Positions 3,371-15,660 of a DNA stretch of 64,000 nucleotides are shown here, one piece after another (positions within the stretch are counted from its first letter, which is position 1; every line of letters begins with the position of its first letter). This DNA is from a virus. Made by a program: the position numbers and the translations under genes. The notes beneath the pieces are model-generated. The model saw nothing but the letters and a program-made list of their open reading frames with translations. It did no database searches and was not told the origin of the DNA. The stretch spans positions 107,985 through 171,984 of IMG/VR virus record IMGVR_UViG_3300010354_000044; one strand, written 5' to 3'.

Positions 3371-3769
3371 ATGTTCTATTCCTTTGAGTTATTCGGACCG
3401 CGCTTGCGCGCGTACGAGCAGAAATTAGCTGAGCTATCGCTGTATGACCCCCCAAGCCCCCCTTCCCCCCAAACCTCGGCAGAAGGACTTAGCGATACAT
3501 CGCCCTTCCAGGAGGCTATTGATGCAGGATTAGCTATGCTAGACTGTATAAAACCAGCATCTACCGAAACCTACGGCCAACACTTTCTAAGCGTTGTCAA
3601 GCTAATAGTAAGAGCGCAGCAATACCCGCTGGCTTTACAACTCATTACAGATTACCGTTGCCCCGCTAAGTACATCTCGGGCGAACTAAAGACTTTAAAG
3701 GAAGCTATCAACACATGTCTTACTTCACCGGCTACAGACAACGACTGCAGCTCAACCATCAGAACTTAG
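3371..3769 (+). CDS. hypothetical protein
   Basis: 132-aa ORF. Confidence 0.65.
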   Translation: MFYSFELFGPRLRAYEQKLAELSLYDPPSPPSPQTSAEGLSDTSPFQEAIDAGLAMLDCIKPASTETYGQHFLSVVKLIVRAQQYPLALQLITDYRCPAKYISGELKTLKEAINTCLTSPATDNDCSSTIRT

Positions 3770-4236
3770 TAGAGCTCGCGTTGCAGTTAACCCAGGAAGG
3801 CCTTCGGGTGCAGTATTATCTCCCTTCTGGTAGGACTCTCTTAAGCTCTCTGCGCGTCATTGACGGCGAGGAGTATCAACATCGGGTATCCAAAGAAGGA
3901 CATTACTACTGGTATAAGATCTTCGTCAATGCCGTGCGTATTCAATTCAACACAGTCCCATACCGGTGGACATTTGAATACGATACGATCCCAGACTACC
4001 AGCACGGCTCTAGCACTACCGGGAAAGAATTTATCGTAAATCCTTTATGTGGGGGCCGTCCTGGGTATGCCGACTGGAATAGGTTACCCTTTAGCGTGCA
4101 AGACGTTAAGGACAATCTCCGGCCCTTCTACCTGCGTAATATCGGTGATCGCCAGCCTGGAATCCTTGATTATGTAGACCTTGTTCCACAAATGCCCGTA
4201 AACTTTAATGAAATCAAAGGAAGCTATGATGTGTAG
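3715..4236 (+). CDS. hypothetical protein
   Basis: 173-aa ORF. Confidence 0.7.
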   Translation: MSYFTGYRQRLQLNHQNLVELALQLTQEGLRVQYYLPSGRTLLSSLRVIDGEEYQHRVSKEGHYYWYKIFVNAVRIQFNTVPYRWTFEYDTIPDYQHGSSTTGKEFIVNPLCGGRPGYADWNRLPFSVQDVKDNLRPFYLRNIGDRQPGILDYVDLVPQMPVNFNEIKGSYDV

Positions 4237-4237
4237 A

Positions 4238-4414
4238 ATGACTAAAAGGCAACTACGAAAGATCAACCTATATTACTGTGTTTCTGCATCTCTTGTAATC
4301 TTACTTGCATTACTCTTGCAGTCTCCAATATCTAACCCGCTGACTCCCTTCCTAATTTCAGCAGTCTTTGTAGTTGGCATTTGGCTCTGGTTCATGAACC
4401 TGTTTGTCCGCTAA
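4238..4414 (+). CDS. small two-TM membrane protein, paralog 1
   Basis: MTKRQLRKINLYY...GIWLWFMNL; start placed by homology with the two neighbours. Confidence 0.75.
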   Translation: MTKRQLRKINLYYCVSASLVILLALLLQSPISNPLTPFLISAVFVVGIWLWFMNLFVR

Positions 4415-4452
4415 CTTTCTAAACCCTACCCCGAGGAAAATAACAATATACA

Positions 4453-4623
4453 ATGCCTAAAAAACAAGTACGCGCATTCAATAACTATTACCTCGCTTTT
4501 GCAACTCCCGTGCTTTTACTCGGGCTGCTTCTGCAGTCCGCAATAGGATTTAATGCCGTAACCGTTATCGTAACCATGGCAGTCGCCATAATAGGCGTTT
4601 GGCTATTGCTCAAAAATTTGTAG
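4453..4623 (+). CDS. small two-TM membrane protein, paralog 2 (56 aa)
   Basis: Hand-translated MPKKQVRAFNNYY...IGVWLLLKNL; not in ORF track. Confidence 0.75.
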   Translation: MPKKQVRAFNNYYLAFATPVLLLGLLLQSAIGFNAVTVIVTMAVAIIGVWLLLKNL

Positions 4624-4674
4624 AGTCAGCGTCGGAAGGATGTCACTAATTTAGAAGCGCTTAAAGGTAACAAA

Positions 4675-4854
4675 GTGAATAGAAAACAACTACGGACAAT
4701 CACACAATATTACATCTTCTTTGCAGGGCCTGTAATTAGCTTCTCAGCACTGCGGTACGTACTAGCAGGCCCTGATTTAAGCTTTATCGTCATACCCTTG
4801 TTAGTGATTCTAATAGGCCTTTGGGTCTTGTTTCTAAACCTAAAAGCTCGCTAA
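4675..4854 (+). CDS. small two-TM membrane protein, paralog 3 (59 aa)
   Basis: Hand-translated from GTG: MNRKQLRTITQYY...IGLWVLFLNLKAR; not in ORF track. Confidence 0.75.
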   Translation: MNRKQLRTITQYYIFFAGPVISFSALRYVLAGPDLSFIVIPLLVILIGLWVLFLNLKAR

Positions 4855-4881
4855 TTGTCTAAACCCTACCCCAAGGAAAAT

Positions 4882-7077
4882 ATGGCTACCATCAACCTGC
4901 TACCTAATTACCTTTACCTCGCGTCAGGGCCCTCGGCGTCGGGTAAGAGCACAGCACTTAAGGGCCTGCCTGCAGGGGTAGTGGTGTCCTCAGACAGCTT
5001 GAGAACCCAAATATTCGGTCTTGAAGCTGATACTGTAGAGGGTAACCTACTAGCCCCTCCTAGCCTAAGACCCCGCCCTGTCAACGATAGCTTTATCTTT
5101 GACACCATGAGACAGATCGTGGAGGCCCGTCTTAAAGCAGGACTGACAACAGTCGTAGACGCAACTTTGTTAACCGACCGTGACCGCAAGCAGTTCGTGG
5201 ATATAGCTGCTAGCTACAACGTCCCTGTTCAGATTTTGATCTGGGATGTTCCCGCCGAGCAGCTGACTACTAGAGATGCAGATCGTCAGTTCCGGGTAGG
5301 GGCTGAGGTTATCCAGCGACAACTGGAGCGCTTTGAGCGTACATCCCAGTACTCCTATATTGTAGACGACTACTTTGAGCTTGAAATAGCTCACCTAACA
5401 GTAGCTAGTAGCGTAGAACTGGATTTCGTGGGTGACATCCACGGCTGCTACGACCAGTTAATAGAACTGATTGAAAAGCTAGGCTATGTTATTGGCGAGG
5501 ACGGTATTGCTAGGTATGCTGGTAATGAGCCCCGGCGTCTGTGCTTTTTGGGCGACTATGTAGACCGAGGGCCCAAGTCCTTAGAGGTACTCAAATTCAT
5601 TTACCGGAATACGCCTACGCATTGGGCGTTGCTGGGGAACCATGATAGTAACCTTCTCAAGGGGTTGCTAGGAAAACCCGTAACCTCCAAGGCCACACAG
5701 GAGACCCTCCATGAAGTGATGGTCGCCAAGGCGGAGAAGTGGGTTACAGAGCTACTGACCTCACTGCCTCGTTATCTAACCTGGCGGAATGTCGTTATTT
5801 GCCATGCCGACATCCAGAGGCTTAACTTACCTCAGGAGACAACTCAGTGCGTTTACGGTTGTAGTAAACTGAACAGGCCTATAAACGCCGATGAAATCTG
5901 GAGTAAGACTGAGAAGCGCCTGCTTATCCGCGGTCACTTTACTCCTGACCACGAGTACGATAACGTCATTACCCTGGACGGTAATCCGGGCTATGGCGGT
6001 ACTATTAAAGCAGGGCGTTTTGCTGTTGCTCAAGTTGCGGGTCGGAAGCATGATAACTTCTTAATCCAGCAATGGATTGAATTCTCATTAGGGCCTACGG
6101 AAGATTATGAAGAACGCAAGAAGACTGTAATAGGTTTTCGCCTTGCCGCTATGCCAAAAGAGTTGGTTAGCACGGCTACATCGCCTTGCGGCCACCTCAA
6201 GCTGTTTAAATACACGCCTAATGCCTTTAGACAGTCCTTTAAATCTGAAGGGCCTTGGCTGGAGTACCCTGACCTTAAGTACGCCCGAGGCCTTGTCGTA
6301 GGCCTTAACCACCAACCGGTGAACACGGTCTTTCCTAAAATTCCTAGTTACACCGAAGGAATTGATCCGAGCAAGCAGGTGATTGCCGCGACAAAGTTGA
6401 ACGGCTTTCTCCTAGCTACATTCAGACATCCTTACAAAGAGGATGTGGTCTTCACTACTACCGGGTCGTTTGACTCTGAGTACGTAAAGATGGGCCGTGC
6501 ATTGTTCTACAAGCACGCAAAACAGTCTCGGCAGCAGCTCCTAAACAGCCCGGGATTGACATTCTTGTGGGAGGTTATAGACCCTAATAAAGACCAAAAT
6601 GTCCACCCTATTGCCTCGTCCGCAGGCATCTACCTAATTGCTGTAGGGCAAAATGGGGTAATCCTCCCCGAGGAGGAGATGCAAAGCTACGCCGGCAACT
6701 TGAATGTCAACTGTGCCAGTCATGTACAGACTGACTTCGGGTCAGTCCTAGAAATGGCCCGCACCAGCGACGGCGAGGGCTATATGATTAGGGACTTGGA
6801 AGGTAACTACCTTGCAAAGCTCAAATCACCGTTTTACCTGACTGTCAAGAAGTTTATGCGTCTATCGCCAAAGGCGGGCGCACAGCTCTTTAACGACCCT
6901 ATTAATTTCAACTTTGAGTATATTTGGCAGCAGTGCATGGACAACCCTTATGCCAACGACCTTTATACCCGGCAGACAGCTATCGCCGAAGCTATCCGAA
7001 CACACTTTTCCTGTGAAACTTGGCAACAAGCAGATAGTTTAACCCGTAGAGAATTTCTCTATCGCATGTTAAGCTAA
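4882..7077 (+). CDS. trifunctional RNA repair enzyme: polynucleotide kinase + metallophosphoesterase + Rnl1-like RNA ligase
   Basis: P-loop GPSASGKST and DAT; MPP motifs GDIHG, GDYVDRG, GNHD; ligase motif I KLNG, EGY, KLK; AAGG upstream of ATG4882. Confidence 0.88.
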   Translation: MATINLLPNYLYLASGPSASGKSTALKGLPAGVVVSSDSLRTQIFGLEADTVEGNLLAPPSLRPRPVNDSFIFDTMRQIVEARLKAGLTTVVDATLLTDRDRKQFVDIAASYNVPVQILIWDVPAEQLTTRDADRQFRVGAEVIQRQLERFERTSQYSYIVDDYFELEIAHLTVASSVELDFVGDIHGCYDQLIELIEKLGYVIGEDGIARYAGNEPRRLCFLGDYVDRGPKSLEVLKFIYRNTPTHWALLGNHDSNLLKGLLGKPVTSKATQETLHEVMVAKAEKWVTELLTSLPRYLTWRNVVICHADIQRLNLPQETTQCVYGCSKLNRPINADEIWSKTEKRLLIRGHFTPDHEYDNVITLDGNPGYGGTIKAGRFAVAQVAGRKHDNFLIQQWIEFSLGPTEDYEERKKTVIGFRLAAMPKELVSTATSPCGHLKLFKYTPNAFRQSFKSEGPWLEYPDLKYARGLVVGLNHQPVNTVFPKIPSYTEGIDPSKQVIAATKLNGFLLATFRHPYKEDVVFTTTGSFDSEYVKMGRALFYKHAKQSRQQLLNSPGLTFLWEVIDPNKDQNVHPIASSAGIYLIAVGQNGVILPEEEMQSYAGNLNVNCASHVQTDFGSVLEMARTSDGEGYMIRDLEGNYLAKLKSPFYLTVKKFMRLSPKAGAQLFNDPINFNFEYIWQQCMDNPYANDLYTRQTAIAEAIRTHFSCETWQQADSLTRREFLYRMLS

Positions 7078-10762: not shown

Positions 10763-11006
10763 GGAGGCGTTCACAAGCGCTGTCCACGAAAAGATCGGCT
10801 ACCATGCCGGTGATGAAATTATGCCCGATGGTGGGGGTTTTTATTATTTCCGATGGAACCGAAGACAAACGGACAACAACCTAATTGTTGGCTATAAACC
10901 CAACAAACCAGAGGTTAGGTGGCTTGTTTACGAAAGTACCAAACCCATCAAGCTTGGATGGGGTCCGACCATAGATGCCGCTTTTACAAAAGCAGGATTA
11001 TCATGA
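10755..11006 (+). CDS. hypothetical protein
   Basis: ATG10755 overlaps the upstream stop. Confidence 0.65.
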   Translation: MNKEAFTSAVHEKIGYHAGDEIMPDGGGFYYFRWNRRQTDNNLIVGYKPNKPEVRWLVYESTKPIKLGWGPTIDAAFTKAGLS

Positions 11007-11617
11007 ACTATGACCAACTTACAGCAACACAGCTACGACTGTTTAACTTAATATCCCACGTCCATTCTTGGCAGCATCTCGCTCAGCTACCCGACCAAAT
11101 TGCGGAAGCTCTTATTCATTTAGCATTTGCGAATAGGGGTTCTGGCTACCCAGCTATTGCCGCTAGGTATAAGCTCGAGCGACTAGCCTCTATGTCTCAT
11201 TCCGAAATTATTCAAGCCTGGGACAAGTTAAACGATACACATTCTTCCTCTAGGATTACTGCCAAAAAGATCAAATTCTATGTAGAGGATGTTTATAGTG
11301 ATAATGGGGTTCAGTATATTCAGGAAGCCTATGAGTTCCCTAATGGGCTGATTATGTCTTTATTACCACCAAACTTCACTTATTTCTATCCTGACAGGAT
11401 TAGGTTACGTGCAGAGCGCGTAATTGAGACTGAAGATACTATCACTTTCACTCCTCACAAACTCCACCAGGCTTTAACCGACAGCATCAGTACATTTGAT
11501 CAGGACCACATAACAGAAGAACTAGCGTTTTTAGTCAACCAATTGATCAACGACTACTTCGCAGCCAAATCCCGCCCCATTACCCCTAAACCTAAAACCG
11601 GCAGCCTGCAATCTTAA
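11003..11617 (+). CDS. hypothetical protein
   Basis: ATGA overlap at 11003, AGGA RBS. Confidence 0.7.
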   Translation: MNYDQLTATQLRLFNLISHVHSWQHLAQLPDQIAEALIHLAFANRGSGYPAIAARYKLERLASMSHSEIIQAWDKLNDTHSSSRITAKKIKFYVEDVYSDNGVQYIQEAYEFPNGLIMSLLPPNFTYFYPDRIRLRAERVIETEDTITFTPHKLHQALTDSISTFDQDHITEELAFLVNQLINDYFAAKSRPITPKPKTGSLQS

Positions 11618-11674
11618 CAAAGTTAAAAACCTGTAACCGCAGCGATATGTATTCCTGTCTCGGCCATTCTATTC

Positions 11675-12091
11675 GTGTCCGCCATGAGTAATGTCAATCC
11701 TTCCCCTAAAGCCCTCTTTATCTCTCCTGATGGCAAAGTCTACCCCGACACCCTGATTTGTTCTGGAAGCTTACCCCCAGAACTGCAAGGTAAACCCTGT
11801 CCCTACTCTCAAAATGGGCGATTACCCGATCCGGTGCCTCTAAATCCAGATGACCCTGGCTATACTCCTGACAAAGGTAAACCTGGGGACTTATGCCCGC
11901 CTTGTGCTAAACAACAACTAGCCCACTTGGGGCATTGGCAGGGCCATGGCGGGCAATCCTTCCCTGAAGACCTATTACCGCTACGCCTATTCAAATGCCG
12001 AATGTGGTTTTGGCTAGTGGTGCCTGGTTTAGAAGATAACACCCCAACAGAACTGCTTTCTACGCCCCCCCCCTCTCCCCAGTACCCCTAA
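11675..12091 (+). CDS. Pro/Cys-rich conserved hypothetical protein, resembling a cyanobacterial family
   Basis: ISPDGKVYPD.LIC...CPPCAKQQL..LGHWQGHG...LRLFKCRMW; flanked by a direct repeat. Confidence 0.7.
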   Translation: MSAMSNVNPSPKALFISPDGKVYPDTLICSGSLPPELQGKPCPYSQNGRLPDPVPLNPDDPGYTPDKGKPGDLCPPCAKQQLAHLGHWQGHGGQSFPEDLLPLRLFKCRMWFWLVVPGLEDNTPTELLSTPPPSPQYP

Positions 12092-12118
12092 AACCGGCAG
12101 TTTGCATCATTAACTTTT

Positions 12119-12150
12119 AACTTGCAATTTTGCAAGTTATGTAGTAGTAT
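12119..12150 (+). promoter_or_regulatory. sigma70-type promoter overlapped by a palindromic operator
   Basis: TTGCAA(12122-12127)-N17-TAGTAT(12145-12150); perfect IR AACTTGCAA-TT-TTGCAAGTT 12119-12138. Confidence 0.65.
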
Positions 12151-12157
12151 GCTAAAT

Positions 12158-12209
12158 GGGCATAGCAACTTCCTTAACTTTGAAATTTGGCCATACCTAG
12201 TTGCCGCCC
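12158..12209 (+). ncRNA. structured RNA repeat unit 1 (stem-AUA/C internal loop-6-bp stem-UCCUU loop)
   Basis: GGGC-ATA-GCAACT-TCCTT..N..T-AGTTGC-C-GCCC. Confidence 0.7.
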
Positions 12210-12221
12210 TTTAAACATTTA

Positions 12222-12274
12222 ACCCGCATAAAGCATTCCTTTAAAACTATTTGGGATAACTATGCTTCGCGGGT
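12222..12274 (+). ncRNA. structured RNA repeat unit 2
   Basis: ACCCGC-ATA-AAGCAT-TCCTT..N..T-ATGCTT-C-GCGGGT; compensatory changes relative to units 1 and 3. Confidence 0.7.
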
Positions 12275-12292
12275 GGCTACTACCCGACTAGA

Positions 12293-12366
12293 CGGGGCAT
12301 AGCGCAGTTTGGTAGCGCGCCTGCTTTGGGAGCAGGATGCCGCAGGTTCAAATCCTGCTGTCCCGA
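12293..12366 (+). tRNA. trnP: tRNA-Pro(TGG)
   Basis: Cloverleaf: acceptor CGGGGCA/TGTCCCG, D-arm with TGG, anticodon arm CCTGC-TTTGGGA-GCAGG, T-loop GTTCAAATC; CCA not encoded. Confidence 0.96.
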
Positions 12367-12369
12367 TTA

Positions 12370-12425
12370 AGTCGCATAGCAACTTCCTTTTCCGTAATTC
12401 CTACCTACCCTTAGTTGCCGCGACT
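12370..12425 (+). ncRNA. structured RNA repeat unit 3
   Basis: AGTCGC-ATA-GCAACT-TCCTT..N..T-AGTTGC-C-GCGACT. Confidence 0.7.
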
Positions 12426-12448
12426 ACCATTATTAAGGAGGCCCGATT

Positions 12449-14281
12449 ATGACTAAGCTAGATACCCGTTTAATCAGGTGCGCCTTGGACTACTTCAAGT
12501 GCGTTCCGTTGTCAGATGACAATGAAGTCGCTGAAGAGCCCGTACTTATTAAGAACCGCGGTATTGTGCTGCACCCTACTGCGGTGTACGCGGAAAAGGT
12601 AGTAGAAAATTGGCTGAGCAACTCCCCTAACGGGGAACAGATGAATAAGACCTTCTATACCTCCTGGCGGGAGTGCCTGGCGGTCTCAACCAAGCAGCAT
12701 ATGCTCAACCAATTTGTACACTACATTACCGCGTATCTTAACGACCGGGGGCTTAGTGATGAGATTATTGTTCCCCGCAATGAACAAGACATTGCTGCAG
12801 ATCTGCGTCTGCAGGTTATTAGAGGGGTATCACTTGACGAATTGGTAATTAGGGCCCACAAGACCCTCTGTCAGAACATCGCCCATCCTCAAGAGGTTAT
12901 AGAAGACCTGTTATATATTCTTGAGTGCGGCGAATTTGCCTGGAATGAGGAGGAATTGGCCAAGGTCACTAACCGAGAAGCTCGGTATCAAATCTTTAAG
13001 CTGCTGGGTCTATACCCTAGTGAAGCAGAGGAGCTAACCAAGTACCTCTTTTTCCTAGCCACCAGCGATTCCTTAATTATCGGCAACAAGCAGTATATCC
13101 AAAGCCTAAGGACATCTAATTACGTCTTGAAGCTAACCCAAGAGCAGATTGACTTAGTAGCCGAGTGCTTCCATCGGTTCAAGAACCTATGGCTGGCGCT
13201 TAAGAAAGCTTCCAGCGCAAATCCCAAAGTGGTTAATACCATATCGCGGAGAGCTAAAGAGCTGCATATACCTAAAAAGCTGCCGGCTATCAAAACTGTG
13301 ACTTCGGGCACGTTCTCTAGTAGTGAATTGGAGGACCTAGGTCGTCGGTCTTCTATCAAAGACCTTGTTACAGCTATTAATGCACTGAAGCTGTACCAGG
13401 ATACAGACAGACGGTTCTTCCGTGTCCGAAATGGTAGAGGTTGGGCTACTAAGGCTATGGAAGGGGTGTTAGGTATGCCAGTTAACGACCGGAAGGCTCA
13501 ATGGTGTGCCTATGAGAAGACACTGCTTGCAATTCTTAAGGAGAAAGTTGCTGCAAAGGGTTTGCGGGTGTACTGTCCTGATTACGTGGACTATAGCTTC
13601 CCGACCAGTCGGAAGCAGATGGTTGGTAACATCCCTGTAGGAACTAAGGTGAATGTGCCCAAAGATTCTAGAAATTCCATTGTAGGTATCTATTGGGAAA
13701 ATCAAGAAGATGCCCGAGTGGACCTAGACCTTACCGCTCATCATATGAGTGGTGAAGTAGTAGGGTGGTATACCCGTCATAGAAGTGCGCAAGTGCCCCT
13801 AGTTTATTCTGGAGACATTACCAGCGGGCCTGCGGCGGAGTATGTTTACCGCAGCCCTTCTTGTACCGATCCTTTCCTATTAGCAGTAACCCACTTTGAA
13901 GGACCTTTGGAAAACCTGCGGTTCCATTTGATCATTGGGCATGAGCTAGAGGAAGCTAAACATAGCATTAATCCAAATAATGTTTTATTTAGCCTGCCGC
14001 TGACTATGGCAAGTAAACAAAGCTGCTTAGGGCTACTAACTCAGTCAGCAGAAGGTCTAACCTTCTTTGTCAACAACGTAGGGATTGGAAACCAGCGGGT
14101 AACCCGAGCGTGCGAAAAGATAGAAACTATTTTGATGCATGCATTAGCTAGTTCTAATACTGGCCTTAAGTTGCGTGACTTAAAGGATGTAATTGAGTTT
14201 GTAGACGAACCAGATTCAAACAGTATAAACCTATCCCCGAGCGAATTGATGGTTGACTCCTTCAACTGCTTTGTGGATTAA
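12449..14281 (+). CDS. large helical protein with C-terminal TerD-like domain (candidate RNA-binding partner of the upstream RNAs)
   Basis: 610 aa, AAGGAGG RBS; C-terminal GIYWEN...VDLDL...YSGDITSGP..AEY are TerD-like motifs. Confidence 0.6.
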   Translation: MTKLDTRLIRCALDYFKCVPLSDDNEVAEEPVLIKNRGIVLHPTAVYAEKVVENWLSNSPNGEQMNKTFYTSWRECLAVSTKQHMLNQFVHYITAYLNDRGLSDEIIVPRNEQDIAADLRLQVIRGVSLDELVIRAHKTLCQNIAHPQEVIEDLLYILECGEFAWNEEELAKVTNREARYQIFKLLGLYPSEAEELTKYLFFLATSDSLIIGNKQYIQSLRTSNYVLKLTQEQIDLVAECFHRFKNLWLALKKASSANPKVVNTISRRAKELHIPKKLPAIKTVTSGTFSSSELEDLGRRSSIKDLVTAINALKLYQDTDRRFFRVRNGRGWATKAMEGVLGMPVNDRKAQWCAYEKTLLAILKEKVAAKGLRVYCPDYVDYSFPTSRKQMVGNIPVGTKVNVPKDSRNSIVGIYWENQEDARVDLDLTAHHMSGEVVGWYTRHRSAQVPLVYSGDITSGPAAEYVYRSPSCTDPFLLAVTHFEGPLENLRFHLIIGHELEEAKHSINPNNVLFSLPLTMASKQSCLGLLTQSAEGLTFFVNNVGIGNQRVTRACEKIETILMHALASSNTGLKLRDLKDVIEFVDEPDSNSINLSPSELMVDSFNCFVD

Positions 14282-14283
14282 GG

Positions 14284-14394
14284 CTTAGCGCGGTCGCTAC
14301 ACGGACAAGCGCTAAGAAGGCGGGGGTTTCCCTCCTTACCCCGCCTTTTTTAATACGAAACATGAGCCGAGGCCTCCTCGGCTTGTGTCTTTTT
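14284..14394 (+). terminator. three consecutive hairpins including two terminator-like stems
   Basis: CTTAGCGC/GCGCTAAG; AAGGCGGGG/CCCCGCCTT + T-run; GAGCCGAGG/CCTCGGCTT + T-run. Confidence 0.7.
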
Positions 14395-14455
14395 ATCGCC
14401 ATTTCCTAACTAATATGTTATATTAAAAAATACAGCAGTCTAAGCTGCCCTCGAC

Positions 14456-15091
14456 ATGAAAAGAGCCAAGAATTGGGATTTCAATTCATCCTCAAATCCC
14501 CAACACATTCCTACTCCAGCGGCGCCTGCTACTGAAAGTAGAGAAAGGTTGACTACTAAAGCTGAGAGTGTACCTAAGAGAATAACACAAGGGCCCCTTA
14601 CCTTATATCCGGAAAGAATTACTAATACTAATGTGAAACCACGCCTAGCCATAGAACTAACTCGTAGGCAGCAAGTGCATGTCGTTGCTGCAGTTGTTGG
14701 TGTATTGGCATTAGTGGCTGCCGGCTCAAGCTTAGTAACCCGCAGCATCCAGAGTACGTCACCTACGGGCGATGCTATGGCTGAGTTTAACTGTGTATCT
14801 ACTAACAATGTAGACCCCACAGGGATTCAAACATTGTATAACGTACAATCTCAGGTCTTGGCAGCTAGAACCCCCAGGGATGTCCTTGGAGACCCCGGGT
14901 GTACATTAGCTAAAGAGGTCGCGTCACCTACCTTAGCTTCTCAGGTCCTTTTGTATGAAACCGATAGACTTGACGTAGTGCTGGCGGTTGTTGTAACCGA
15001 AAGTGCTGGTAAGTTCTTTGTACAAGATACGTTCTTTACAGACGGCTTTACAAGAATTGAAGTACAGCAAAGCCAGGGAGAATCACTGTGA
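14456..15091 (+). CDS. single-TM membrane protein
   Basis: Hydrophobic helix VVAAVVGVLALVAAG. Confidence 0.7.
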   Translation: MKRAKNWDFNSSSNPQHIPTPAAPATESRERLTTKAESVPKRITQGPLTLYPERITNTNVKPRLAIELTRRQQVHVVAAVVGVLALVAAGSSLVTRSIQSTSPTGDAMAEFNCVSTNNVDPTGIQTLYNVQSQVLAARTPRDVLGDPGCTLAKEVASPTLASQVLLYETDRLDVVLAVVVTESAGKFFVQDTFFTDGFTRIEVQQSQGESL

Positions 15092-15660
15092 TTATAGCTA
15101 TAGCAGGGCCCCATAGCAGTGGTAAGGATACTATTGCCGCTTTCTTAAAACCTTACGGCTTCAAAAGAATATCGTATGCGGATGAGGTTTGCCGGTGCGT
15201 ATCCCATAAATACAAGCTCCCCTACGCCCGTCTTTTAGGCTTAAATCAAGAAGATAGACTTTGGCGCAGAACACCCCATACTAGCCTGGCTGTCCGTAAC
15301 GGCGCACATTTAACCCCCTTGGATGTTCTAAATATAGAAGGGGATGGCAGCCGAGAAGTACAGCCAGATGTTTGGGTAAAGCACCTGCTGGATGTTATTG
15401 ACAAAGATCCCCAAAGTAACTGGGTGATTCCAGGTCTAAGGCGCTTGAATGAAGCACAAGCTGTTCTAGCAAGGGGAGGGCTACTTTGGTATGTTCATAA
15501 ACAGGGCCTTCCTTTAGGCCCTGAAGAGAAGGAACTCCCTTTTGTTAGGAATCTTGCTTCAGAGATTATTTATAACCAAGCAACCCTCTCTGACTTAGAG
15601 CAGACTGTAATGGGTCTAATATTAAAATTCAACATCCAGGGCGCAAATGCTACTTATTAG
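15088..15660 (+). CDS. deoxynucleoside monophosphate kinase
   Basis: IAIAGPHSSGKDT, SYAD, PDVWV, LRRLNEA, as in T4 gp1-like dNMP kinases. Confidence 0.85.
   Translation: MIIAIAGPHSSGKDTIAAFLKPYGFKRISYADEVCRCVSHKYKLPYARLLGLNQEDRLWRRTPHTSLAVRNGAHLTPLDVLNIEGDGSREVQPDVWVKHLLDVIDKDPQSNWVIPGLRRLNEAQAVLARGGLLWYVHKQGLPLGPEEKELPFVRNLASEIIYNQATLSDLEQTVMGLILKFNIQGANATY

What the first reader, a model, noticed from the sequence alone, without database searches (positions are those of the whole stretch)
12119..14394. Candidate undescribed RNP system: array of covarying stem-loop RNAs + tRNA-Pro + 610-aa helical/TerD-like protein in one operon
Seen: three ~52-56 nt units (12158-12209, 12222-12274, 12370-12425) share an exact register: outer stem ending GC, unpaired ATA opposite a single C, a 6-bp inner stem, then TCCTT opening a 25-28 nt variable loop. 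The inner stem is GCAACT/AGTTGC in units 1 and 3 but AAGCAT/ATGCTT in unit 2 (5 of 6 pairs changed compensatorily). The outer stems also covary (GGGC/GCCC, ACCCGC/GCGGGT, AGTCGC/GCGACT). This indicates selection on RNA structure, not a plain DNA repeat. A promoter would start transcription at unit 1, tRNA-Pro lies between units 2 and 3, and the protein gene follows 23 nt after unit 3. Established: bacterial Ro60 (TROVE) genes sit beside Y RNAs, whose termini pair into a bulged helix bound by the protein, and are often linked to tRNAs and RNA-repair genes. Inference: the 610-aa protein binds the AUA/C helix and presents the variable loops, as a Ro/Y-analogous RNP for tRNA protection or counter-defence. 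tRNA processing would release the units.
Basis: partly seen in the sequence, partly recalled or inferred. Interest (0 to 1): 0.92.

Follow-up and report, generated by a model that had tools for sequence, protein, structure and literature searches.

The report
Y-RNA-like handle RNAs with TerD-fold partner
Three small folded RNAs and a tRNA sit in front of an uncharacterised 610-residue phage protein. The same RNA-protein pair recurs in many unrelated phages, so it is probably an undescribed RNA-protein particle built on the plan of Ro60 with its Y RNAs.

Summary
The three units (12158-12209, 12222-12274, 12370-12425) share one "handle": an outer stem ending GC, an A-N-A bulge opposite a single C, a 6-bp inner stem closed by U-A, then UCCU.

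A covariance model built from 20 units finds over 70 more, all on the gene's strand, beside homologs of the 610-aa protein. These lie in cyanophages S-CRM01 and S-CBWM1, gut phage Phass-1, many uncultured viruses and one bacterial MAG.

- **Covariation:** 93% of cells are paired, 11 of 12 pairs show compensatory changes, and 0 of 500 shuffles reach the score.
- **Blind test:** of 118 loci fetched by a DNA pattern, 13 of 16 model-positive loci carry the protein gene in reach. None of the 102 model-negative loci do.
- **tRNA mimicry:** in relatives the loop holds a permuted tRNA-like body that matches Rfam YrlA below threshold. In one locus the handle replaces the anticodon arm of an ordinary-order tRNA shape.
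- **Protein:** a basic helical domain with no detectable relative, plus a TerD-fold domain. No TROVE or vWA domain was detected.

Binding and function are inferred, not shown. The RNA and protein are absent from Rfam, Pfam, NCBIfam, PHROGs and PADLOC. This scan found the same pair earlier in at least eight other genomes.

The parts
12119..12138 (.). 20-bp perfect palindrome AACTTGCAA-TT-TTGCAAGTT just upstream of unit 1. It is a possible operator and overlaps a weak -35-like TTGCAA.
   Evidence: Read from the sequence. It is unique in the 172-kb record. No sigma-70 consensus promoter was called here.
12158..12209 (+). Handle RNA unit 1 (outer stem GGGC/GCCC, AUA bulge, inner stem GCAACU/AGUUGC, UCCUU, 28-nt loop containing UUUGG, single C).
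   Evidence: CM R1 45.4 bits, E 8e-10.
12222..12274 (+). Handle RNA unit 2 (outer stem ACCCGC/GCGGGU, AUA, inner stem AAGCAU/AUGCUU, UCCUU, 25-nt loop containing UUUGGGA, single C).
   Evidence: CM R1 47.1 bits, E 2.7e-10.
12293..12366 (+). tRNA-Pro(UGG), with no encoded CCA, lying 3 nt before unit 3.
   Evidence: ARAGORN. Rfam tRNA 69.6 bits.
12370..12425 (+). Handle RNA unit 3 (outer stem AGUCGC/GCGACU, AUA, inner stem GCAACU/AGUUGC, UCCUU, 28-nt pyrimidine-rich loop, single C). It ends 22 nt before the start codon.
   Evidence: CM R1 49.4 bits, E 6e-11.
12449..13564 (+). N-terminal alpha-helical domain (residues 1-372) of the 610-aa protein. It is basic, holds the invariant residues N175, E177, N263, H273, R327, N328 and G329, and has no detectable relative of known fold.
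   Evidence: AF2 models; fold searches; invariant columns; pI.
13664..14143 (+). TerD-fold beta-sandwich domain (residues about 406-565). It is acidic and holds the invariant residues G413, W416, D425, D427, G455, D456 and E464.
   Evidence: Foldseek 3ibz, 2kxt and 2qng at probability 1.0. VIA-align 2qz7_B Z 11.0, rmsd 3.2, 143 residues aligned. Invariant columns.
12449..14281 (+). The whole 610-aa ORF, a member of a family of at least 1162 representative clusters that no protein library names.
14318..14395 (+). Two tandem intrinsic-terminator-like hairpins with T runs that close the transcription unit.
   Evidence: Sequence; scan.

Best explanation
This locus encodes a ribonucleoprotein module.

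The RNAs. U1, U2 and U3 are small stable RNAs transcribed with tRNA-Pro and the 610-aa gene. They are probably cut free by the tRNA-processing RNases, because units abut tRNA ends here and in relatives. Each RNA has two parts. The first is a conserved handle: outer stem ending G-C, A-N-A bulge opposite one C, 6-bp inner stem closed by U-A, then UCCU. The second is a variable cargo. In this phage the cargo is a 25-28-nt loop; in relatives it is often a tRNA-like body.

The protein. It has a basic helical N-domain and an acidic TerD-fold C-domain that probably binds metal. I infer that it docks on the handle and that the cargo points outward. This is the plan of Ro60 with Y RNAs (YrlA and YrlB), but built from an unrelated protein and a different handle.

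Likely role. The genes sit in tRNA clusters and near RNA-repair genes, so the probable function is in tRNA or RNA surveillance, repair or counter-defence during infection. The unit just before the ribosome-binding site may also let excess protein repress its own translation.

What is shown and what is inferred. Shown: a structured RNA family, its tight and strand-specific linkage to this protein family, and the tRNA-like cargo in relatives. Inferred: direct binding, RNA processing and the biological role.
For: 1. RNA structure. In the 20-unit alignment 93.3% of cells are paired against 63% in shuffles. Eleven of 12 pairs show compensatory changes, and the covariation score is 0.792 against 0.193, reached by 0 of 500 shuffles. 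Sliding the partner columns drops the score to 0.194 or less. The 60 distinct CM-aligned units give the same picture. Invariant unpaired or closing positions (A10, U16-A56, UCCU, C62) point to sequence-specific recognition.

2. Linkage from protein to RNA. The module is present in 13 of 13 protein-first loci: the window, S-CRM01, S-CBWM1, Phass-1, L007, L008, L010, L011 and L131-L135.

3. Linkage from RNA to protein (blind). Of 118 viral loci fetched by a DNA pattern, 16 are CM-positive. Thirteen of these have the homolog in reach, and one more has it elsewhere on the contig. None of the 102 CM-negative loci has it.

4. Position. All 71 units lie on the gene's strand. In most loci the nearest unit ends 10-47 nt before the start codon or begins 3-47 nt after the stop.

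5. tRNA-like cargo. Permuted T-arm, acceptor-hairpin and D-arm bodies occur in S-CRM01, L107 (two units), L063 and L049. Four of the five (not L049) give sub-threshold full-length YrlA matches of 34-45.5 bits. In L011 the same handle, circularly permuted, replaces the anticodon arm of an ordinary-order cloverleaf.

6. Protein. The model is high-confidence (pLDDT 91.7). The N-domain is basic (median pI 9.2, above 8 in 89% of members), which fits RNA binding.

7. Context. The pair lies in tRNA or tmRNA clusters. Neighbours include Pnkp-like, TilS-like and Pth-like genes, and a Pnkp-like kinase-phosphatase ORF lies 5 kb upstream in the window.
Against: There is no direct evidence of binding, of discrete RNAs, or of function.

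The protein has no recognisable RNA-binding domain, and TerD domains are not known to bind RNA.

One 37-kb phage record judged 99% complete carries a good unit (42.7 bits) but no homolog. The RNA can therefore exist without a cis-encoded protein.

The window's own three units have no tRNA-like cargo.

Few G-U pairs occur, so wobble pairs do not prove the strand. The strand rests on the tRNA-like bodies, the orientation and the conserved single-stranded bases.

The closeness of a unit to the start codon also fits a purely cis-regulatory role.
Confidence: 0.6

Rival explanations
1. The hairpins are purely cis-regulatory leader or trailer elements of the mRNA, such as an autoregulatory translational operator or a stability element. 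They would not be free RNAs forming a particle.
For: In 17 of 25 loci a unit ends within 10-47 nt of the start codon, with the ribosome-binding site in between. In the bacterial MAG copy the unit is embedded in a terminator-like hairpin after the gene.
Against: Arrays hold 2-6 divergent units. Some units lie far from the gene: 2.5 kb upstream between tRNAs in S-CBWM1, 1.2-1.7 kb downstream past two ORFs in Phass-1, and over 3 kb away in L049 and L122. tRNA-like bodies, and in L011 acceptor-ended tRNA shapes, imply processed stand-alone RNAs. Autoregulation may still coexist with the particle.
Confidence: 0.12
2. This is an RNA-antitoxin arrangement like type III toxin-antitoxin systems (ToxIN). 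The protein would be a harmful enzyme that processes the upstream RNA array, and the units would hold it inactive.
For: The layout is the same: an array of small RNA units directly upstream of a protein gene in one transcription unit. The invariant acidic and polar residues could form an active site.
Against: Units within an array are divergent and covarying, not near-identical tandem repeats. The protein is about 600 aa with no ToxN-like or any nuclease family match, and PADLOC has no hit. The family is mostly in lytic-type phage genomes inside tRNA clusters. No terminator lies between the array and the gene in the window.
Confidence: 0.08
3. The hairpins are processing punctuation or selfish mobile hairpins of phage tRNA operons. 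They would merely travel with the gene, without a physical RNA-protein complex.
For: Units abut tRNA ends. One nearly complete phage has a unit but no gene. In L008 near-identical units flank the gene symmetrically, which hints at cassette-like duplication.
Against: The conserved unpaired bases (A-N-A, C, UCCU) and the U-A closing pair are not needed for punctuation. None of 102 CM-negative loci has the gene, and 13 of 13 gene loci have the module. The module is kept through circular permutation.
Confidence: 0.07
4. The variable loops are guides or decoys. They would be either antisense guides that direct the protein to targets, or anticodon-loop mimics (unit 2 UUUGGGA equals the tRNA-Pro loop) that soak up host anticodon nucleases.
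For: Loops are 20-36 nt and variable.
Against: The loops show no above-chance complementarity to the phage genome: the longest match is 11 nt, equal to the shuffled mean. U-G-G is a family-wide loop motif, present in 26 of 48 distinct short loops against 9.4 expected (0 of 1000 shuffles), sitting 4-12 nt before the inner 3' strand in phages with various neighbouring tRNAs. The unit 2 match is therefore explained without mimicry. The tRNA-like cargos lack an anticodon arm altogether. Host genomes could not be tested.
Confidence: 0.06

Closest known systems
Ro60 (Rsr; TROVE + vWA) with bacterial and phage Y RNAs YrlA and YrlB. Examples are Salmonella rsr-yrlBA-rtcBA, the phage examples in Chen et al. 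2014 (PMC4201824), and Thermus phage phiLo Ro60 with Yrl1 and Yrl2 (PMC12135203).
   Same: The small RNAs are encoded right beside the protein gene, often several per locus. The RNA is modular: a terminal bulged helix as the presumed docking site plus a variable module. At least one RNA in many loci carries a permuted tRNA-like body (T-arm, acceptor hairpin, D-arm), which Rfam YrlA recognises below threshold. The protein has two domains, a helical part of about 370 aa followed by a metal-site domain of about 180 aa. The pair is linked to tRNA and RNA-repair genes and occurs in phages.
   Different: No TROVE match was found for any of 82 members, and no Ro60 chain appears in sequence or fold searches. 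The C-domain is TerD fold, not vWA. The handle lacks the GNCGAA/CGAA motif taken to bind Ro60 (PMC4201824, PMC12135203) and instead has A-N-A/C plus UCCU. No match reaches the YrlA gathering score of 69. The window's own units give no Y-RNA match even at E up to 10.
TerD family (tellurite-resistance TerD, TerE, TerZ; PDB 2kxt, 3ibz, 2qz7).
   Same: The C-terminal domain (residues about 406-565) has the TerD beta-sandwich fold (Z 11.0 and 9.7; Foldseek probability 1.0). It keeps invariant D-x-D and G-D...E motifs where, from my recollection of the family, TerD binds calcium.
   Different: Pfam TerD is not matched by sequence. The domain is fused to a large basic helical domain that stand-alone TerD proteins lack. 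The context is tRNA clusters with handle RNAs, not ter operons.
Type III toxin-antitoxin systems (ToxIN, CptIN, TenpIN).
   Same: An array of small RNA units is transcribed just upstream of a protein gene, and the RNAs are expected to bind the protein.
   Different: Those repeats are near-identical tandem copies, and the toxin is a small ToxN-type endoribonuclease (my knowledge of the family). Here the units are divergent and covarying, the protein is about 600 aa and unrelated, and the host elements are mostly phages.
Stable small RNAs of the phage T4 tRNA cluster (species 1 and 2; rnaC, rnaD).
   Same: These are non-tRNA small RNAs co-transcribed and co-processed with phage tRNAs (my knowledge of T4).
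   Different: No shared motif was tested or is known, and no dedicated partner protein is known for the T4 RNAs.

Membership tests
Ro60 / TROVE (PF05731) protein family | TROVE domain detectable by sequence | tested here: not met
   Pfam gives no match for the window protein at E up to 0.1 or for any of 82 family members at E up to 0.01. The family profile against all PDB sequences, which include Ro60 entries, gives nothing at E up to 10 except one chance 25-residue match.
Ro60 / TROVE protein family | HEAT-repeat ring fold of the N-terminal part | tested here: inconclusive
   The N-domain was folded alone (pLDDT 79.5). VIA-align wide gives a best Z of 7.9, on a generic helical hairpin only, with no Ro60 in the top 50. 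Foldseek's best E is 0.05, from weak alpha-solenoid noise.
Ro60 / TROVE protein family | C-terminal von Willebrand A domain with MIDAS site | tested here: not met
   The C-terminal domain is a TerD-fold beta-sandwich. No vWA match was found by Pfam or by fold.
YrlA (Rfam RF02553) / bacterial Y RNAs | Score at or above the Rfam gathering threshold of 69 bits | tested here: not met
   The window units give no match at E up to 10. Relatives' long-loop units score 34.1-45.5 bits over the full model length, driven by the tRNA-like part.
YrlA / bacterial Y RNAs | 5'-strand motif GNCGAAN0-1G (CGAA) thought to contact Ro60 (PMC4201824, PMC12135203) | tested here: not met
   The consensus handle is GGC-AAA-NNNNNU-UCCU, and no CGAA is conserved in the 62 aligned units.
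YrlA / bacterial Y RNAs | tRNA-like domain (T-arm, acceptor hairpin, D-arm) joined to a terminal protein-binding helix | tested here: met
   This is met in relatives: S-CRM01 L001 2615-2738, L107 1473-1578 and 1585-1700, L063 1557-1683, and L049 7724-7856. A non-permuted form occurs in L011. It is not met by the three units of this window.
TerD family (PF02342) | Sequence match to the Pfam model | tested here: not met
   No Pfam hit. The only hit is a weak partial NCBIfam NF041916 match over residues 394-465.
TerD family | TerD beta-sandwich fold | tested here: met
   2qz7_B Z 11.0, rmsd 3.2, 143 residues aligned; 2kxt Z 9.7. Foldseek probability 1.0 for 3ibz, 2kxt and 2qng.
Type III toxin-antitoxin (ToxIN-like) | Near-identical tandem RNA repeats plus a ToxN-type endoribonuclease | tested here: not met
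   The units differ in stem and loop sequence. No ToxN or any defence-system model is matched.

The most novel reading that the evidence does not exclude
A large phage-borne protein family with no detectable relationship to TROVE has independently arrived at the Ro60/Y-RNA design. It would dock on a conserved handle carried by arrays of small RNAs whose cargo ranges from short U-G-G loops to whole tRNA mimics. It would use them to watch over or manipulate tRNA metabolism, such as repair, 3'-end status or host tRNA-directed defences, during infection. That would be a second, convergent class of tRNA-mimic RNPs, common in phage tRNA islands.
Probability: 0.45. Interest if true: 0.9.

Novelty: new variant of a known kind. 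Interest (0 to 1): 0.8.

Why it matters
Phage tRNA islands are usually read as lists of tRNAs and orphan ORFs. This result says that a recurrent part of them is a dedicated RNA-protein module. It comprises at least 1162 protein clusters at 50% identity and dozens of RNA units in the few loci sampled, and it is missing from Rfam, Pfam, NCBIfam, PHROGs and PADLOC.

If the protein binds the handle, this is a second solution to the Ro60/Y-RNA problem, built from different parts. That would help show what the tRNA-like module of Y RNAs is for, which is still an open question for YrlA. The system can be tested directly in cultured cyanophages (S-CRM01, S-CBWM1). It also gives a function-linked anchor for annotating hundreds of hypothetical genes and the "empty" spacers in phage tRNA clusters.

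Tried and rejected
- **Word-index and single-protein searches.** The word-index protein search found only the query. The single-protein locus search in viral contigs found nothing. The 82-sequence alignment was too diverse for the locus scanner.
- **Rfam.** At E up to 10 over 11500-15000 there is nothing on the units.
- **Ro60 or TROVE kinship.** It does not appear by Pfam, by PDB profile search, or by Foldseek and VIA-align on the whole model and on the N-domain alone. The ESM Atlas gave only unnamed viral clusters or "TerD family" clusters.
- **Other libraries.** PHROGs, PADLOC and NCBIfam give no meaningful family.
- **Promoter.** There is no consensus hit upstream of unit 1.
- **Antisense-guide idea.** The loops match the phage genome no better than shuffles do.
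- **Anticodon-loop mimicry of unit 2.** It is explained by the family-wide U-G-G loop motif.
- **CC-GG pairing.** Pairing of the CC of UCCU with the loop GG is possible but only 2-3 bp, with no consistent flanking pairs. I did not adopt it.
- **48-nt direct repeat ending upstream of unit 1.** It is the shared C-terminus of paralogous ORFs, not a promoter motif.
- **L055 neighbour.** The 439-aa ORF behind the orphan unit in L055 is not a divergent homolog (hhalign probability 0.1).
- **DNA similarity.** A window segment has no match to known phages. The first attempt was one base too long.
- **Literature.** Searches for a description of this pair found only Ro60/Y-RNA work.
- **Not attempted.** Complex prediction was not used because it takes proteins only.
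Full report
**What is in the window**

The stretch 12119-14395 is one compact + strand unit. In order it holds:
- a unique 20-bp palindrome at 12119-12138;
- unit 1 at 12158-12209;
- unit 2 at 12222-12274;
- tRNA-Pro(UGG) at 12293-12366;
- unit 3 at 12370-12425;
- an AAGGAGG ribosome-binding site;
- a 610-aa ORF at 12449-14281;
- two tandem terminator-like hairpins at 14318-14395.

Each has an outer stem ending GC, then AUA, then a 6-bp inner stem, then UCCUU opening a 25-28-nt loop, then the return strand, one unpaired C, and the outer return strand. Units 1 and 3 share the inner stem GCAACU/AGUUGC. Unit 2 has AAGCAU/AUGCUU, so five of six pairs are changed on both sides. The minimum-free-energy folds reproduce the drawing. 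The exact 16-nt signature occurs three times in the whole 172-kb virus record, all here. The scan calls no consensus promoter. By eye a weak TTGCAA-17-TAGTAT pair would start transcription at unit 1, and I treat that as unproven.

**Is it more than three look-alike hairpins?**

tblastn found homologs of the 610-aa protein at 28-32% identity in Synechococcus phages S-CRM01 and S-CBWM1 and in the gut phage Phass-1. In the two cyanophages the gene lies inside the tRNA gene cluster.

A structural scan and then a covariance model (R1, built from 20 short-loop units) find the same motif on the gene's strand in all of them:
- S-CRM01: five units immediately upstream and one 5 nt downstream;
- S-CBWM1: one unit 10 nt upstream and one between tRNA-Pro and tRNA-Glu;
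- Phass-1: six in a row, followed by a tmRNA.

Metagenomic family members show the same thing (L007, L008, L010; L131-L135). This includes a copy in a Deferribacteraceae MAG, in a chromosomal-looking context. There the unit is embedded in a terminator-like hairpin right after the gene.

**Covariation**

I counted pairs on the MAFFT alignment of 20 units with the structure I named:
- 93.3% of cells are standard pairs, against 63% after shuffling.
- 11 of 12 pairs show changes on both sides, in 70 cells.
- The covariation score is 0.792 against 0.193, and 0 of 500 shuffles reach it.
- Sliding the 3' partner by 1-3 columns collapses the score to 0.194 or less.

The 60 distinct CM-aligned units give 93.2%, 222 double-change cells and a score of 0.764. 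That alignment is fitted to the model, so it leans towards the structure.

The following are invariant: the third bulge base (A), the U-A pair closing the inner stem, UCCU, and the lone C. The G-C and C-G pairs closing the outer stem are nearly invariant. Conserved unpaired bases on a covarying scaffold are what a protein-docking site looks like.

**Blind reciprocal test**

I scanned IMG/VR with a DNA pattern that required no base pairing and made no reference to the protein. It returned 118 loci, most of them expected to be chance matches. R1 was positive at E below 1e-3 in 16 of them.

A profile of the protein family, run over six-frame ORFs, found the homolog in 13 of those 16. It found the homolog in none of the 102 CM-negative loci. 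The three remaining CM-positive loci are as follows:
- L122 is a second site on a contig that carries the gene elsewhere.
- L092 is a 4.3-kb fragment.
- L055 is a 37-kb record rated 99% complete that truly lacks the gene. This is a real exception.

All 71 units scored lie on the gene's strand. The nearest unit usually ends 10-47 nt before the start codon or starts 3-47 nt after the stop.

**The cargo**

In relatives the "loop" is often a tRNA-like body in permuted order: T-arm, acceptor-like hairpin, D-arm. This occurs at S-CRM01 L001 2615-2738, L107 1473-1578 and 1585-1700, L063 1557-1683, and L049 7724-7856. Rfam's YrlA model aligns over its full length to four of the five (not L049), at 34.1-45.5 bits. 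That is below the gathering score of 69 and is driven by the tRNA-like part.

L011 at first looked like a gene without units. In fact it carries two cloverleaf-shaped RNAs in ordinary tRNA order, at 2643-2769 and 2806-2931. In these the anticodon arm is replaced by the same handle in circularly permuted form: AGUCUU, then C, then a capped outer stem GAU/AUC, then UAA, then AAGACU, then UCCU. The unconstrained MFE fold recovers the cloverleaf and the permuted handle for the first of the two (2643-2769); the second is inferred from its parallel sequence, as its MFE differs. The handle and tRNA-body combination is therefore preserved through a change of topology. That is hard to explain unless the folded RNA itself is the functional object.

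About half of the short loops, including units 1 and 2 here, share a U-G-G motif 4-12 nt before the return strand. It is present in 26 of 48 distinct loops against 9.4 expected, reached by 0 of 1000 shuffles.

**The protein**

An exhaustive HMMER search finds 1162 representative clusters at E up to 1e-3, and 517 at E up to 1e-30. None of 82 members has a Pfam family. PHROGs, PADLOC and NCBIfam give nothing useful, and the profile has no PDB sequence relative.

AlphaFold2 with 82 sequences gives pLDDT 91.7 and pTM 0.88. The model has a helical domain (residues 1 to about 372), a beta-sandwich, and a short C-terminal tail. The sandwich is a TerD fold: 2qz7_B at Z 11.0, rmsd 3.2 over 143 residues; 2kxt at Z 9.7; and Foldseek probability 1.0 for 3ibz, 2kxt and 2qng. 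It keeps invariant D425, D427, G455, D456 and E464. From what I recall of TerD structures, these correspond to its calcium sites, but I did not align them residue by residue.

The helical domain was folded alone (pLDDT 79.5). It has no credible relative: best Z 7.9 on a generic helical hairpin, and Foldseek best E 0.05. No Ro60 chain is listed.

The N-domain is basic, with a median pI of 9.2 and a pI above 8 in 89% of members. The TerD domain is acidic, with a median pI of 4.8. Atlas neighbours are unnamed, mostly viral clusters.

**How it most likely works**

Shown:
- a structured RNA family;
- its strand-specific, reciprocal linkage to this protein family across very distant phages;
- tRNA-like cargo in relatives;
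- a position in tRNA or tmRNA clusters and near RNA-repair genes. These are the Pnkp-like neighbour in L007, the TilS-like gene in L008, the Pth-like gene in L011, and a kinase-plus-phosphoesterase 740-aa ORF at 4855-7077 of this window.

Inferred:
- The units are cut out of the tRNA-operon transcript. Unit 3 starts 3 nt after tRNA-Pro, and units abut tRNAs in S-CRM01, L010, L135 and L049.
- The protein's basic helical domain docks on the handle.
- The cargo is displayed to other factors, as in Ro60 with YrlA and YrlB (PMC4201824) and phage phiLo Ro60 with Yrl1 and Yrl2 (PMC12135203).
- A unit placed just before the ribosome-binding site could also give feedback control.
- The biological role is a guess from context: tRNA surveillance or repair, or interference with host tRNA-directed defences.

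**Rivals**

- *A purely cis-acting leader.* This fits the proximity to the start codon. It does not fit the arrays, the distant units or the tRNA-shaped versions.
- *A ToxIN-like RNA antitoxin.* The layout fits, but the repeat identity, protein type and host elements do not.
- *Punctuation or selfish hairpins.* These do not explain the conserved unpaired bases or the clean 0-of-102 against 13-of-16 split.
- *Antisense guides.* The loops match the phage genome no better than shuffles do.

**Comparison with what is known**

The system works like Ro60 with Y RNA but fails the membership tests:
- It has no TROVE or vWA domain.
- The RNA has no GNCGAA/CGAA motif.
- No match reaches the YrlA gathering score.

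The TerD fold is met by structure but not by the Pfam model. I therefore file this as a new variant of a known kind: an RNA-protein particle with modular, tRNA-mimicking small RNAs, made of unrelated parts.

My literature searches found no description of this pair. The Aravind-lab jumbo-phage survey mentions TROVE proteins and stand-alone TerD genes separately, not this pair.

This scan has met the same pair in at least eight other genomes, and those follow-ups reached a similar reading. I re-derived the key tests here independently, and their notes are not counted as evidence.

Noticed in passing
window 4855-7077 (+): A 740-aa ORF with an AAA_33 kinase domain and a calcineurin-like phosphoesterase domain, the Pnkp-like RNA end-healing architecture. 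It lies 5 kb upstream of the RNA/protein operon.
   Followed up: partly
L011 2643-2769 and 2806-2931 (+): Two tRNA-shaped RNAs in ordinary order (acceptor, D-arm, T-arm) whose anticodon arm is replaced by the circularly permuted handle followed by UCCU. ARAGORN does not call them. Because they end in an acceptor stem, they might be CCA-tailed or even charged.
   Followed up: partly
short loops of units in the window (12189-12193, 12250-12255) and in many loci: A U-G-G motif recurs 4-12 nt before the inner 3' strand in 26 of 48 distinct short loops, against 9.4 expected. In tRNA-like units the GG sits where a tRNA variable loop (GGUC) would be. It could be a protein contact, could pair with the CC of UCCU, or (speculatively) could pair with a tRNA 3' CCA end as the T-box UGGN does.
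   Followed up: partly
L055 7625-7678 (-): A good unit (42.7 bits) in a 37-kb viral record rated 99% complete that has no homolog of the protein. The unit sits 8 nt upstream of an unrelated 439-aa ORF next to a tail-fibre-like gene. It is an orphan handle RNA.
   Followed up: yes
L134 / L136 (Deferribacteraceae MAG, contig CAYJDR010000009.1), gene 3501-5339, unit 5387-5434: A family member in a bacterial chromosomal-looking context (symporter, cytochrome c3, TfoX). Its single unit is embedded in an extended terminator-like hairpin with a T run.
   Followed up: partly
L003 6632-7070 (Phass-1) and L063 4309-4734: tmRNA genes lie next to the unit arrays (Rfam 77.9 and 89.8 bits). ARAGORN missed the Phass-1 copy, and the record does not annotate it.
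   Followed up: partly
window 12293-12366; L001 5074-5285; L002 382-456; L070 2843-2916; L081 8565-8641: tRNA-Pro(UGG) lies beside or near the unit arrays in five loci. This may be chance in tRNA-rich clusters, and its significance was not tested.
   Followed up: no
L008 2472-2662 and 4771-4898: Units flank the gene in mirror order (a, b, c, gene, c', a') with near-identical copies on both sides. This suggests duplication or cassette-like insertion of the gene into an array.
   Followed up: no
window 11571-11618 and 12067-12114 (plus one more copy outside the window): A 48-nt direct repeat (71% identity) containing CTAAAACCGGCAG at the 3' ends of neighbouring ORFs 10919-11617 and 11675-12091. 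These are probably paralogous proline-rich C-termini, not a regulatory motif.
   Followed up: partly
window 15088-15660 (+): A deoxynucleoside monophosphate kinase homolog (PHROG 139, E 2e-25) lies two genes downstream of the operon.
   Followed up: no
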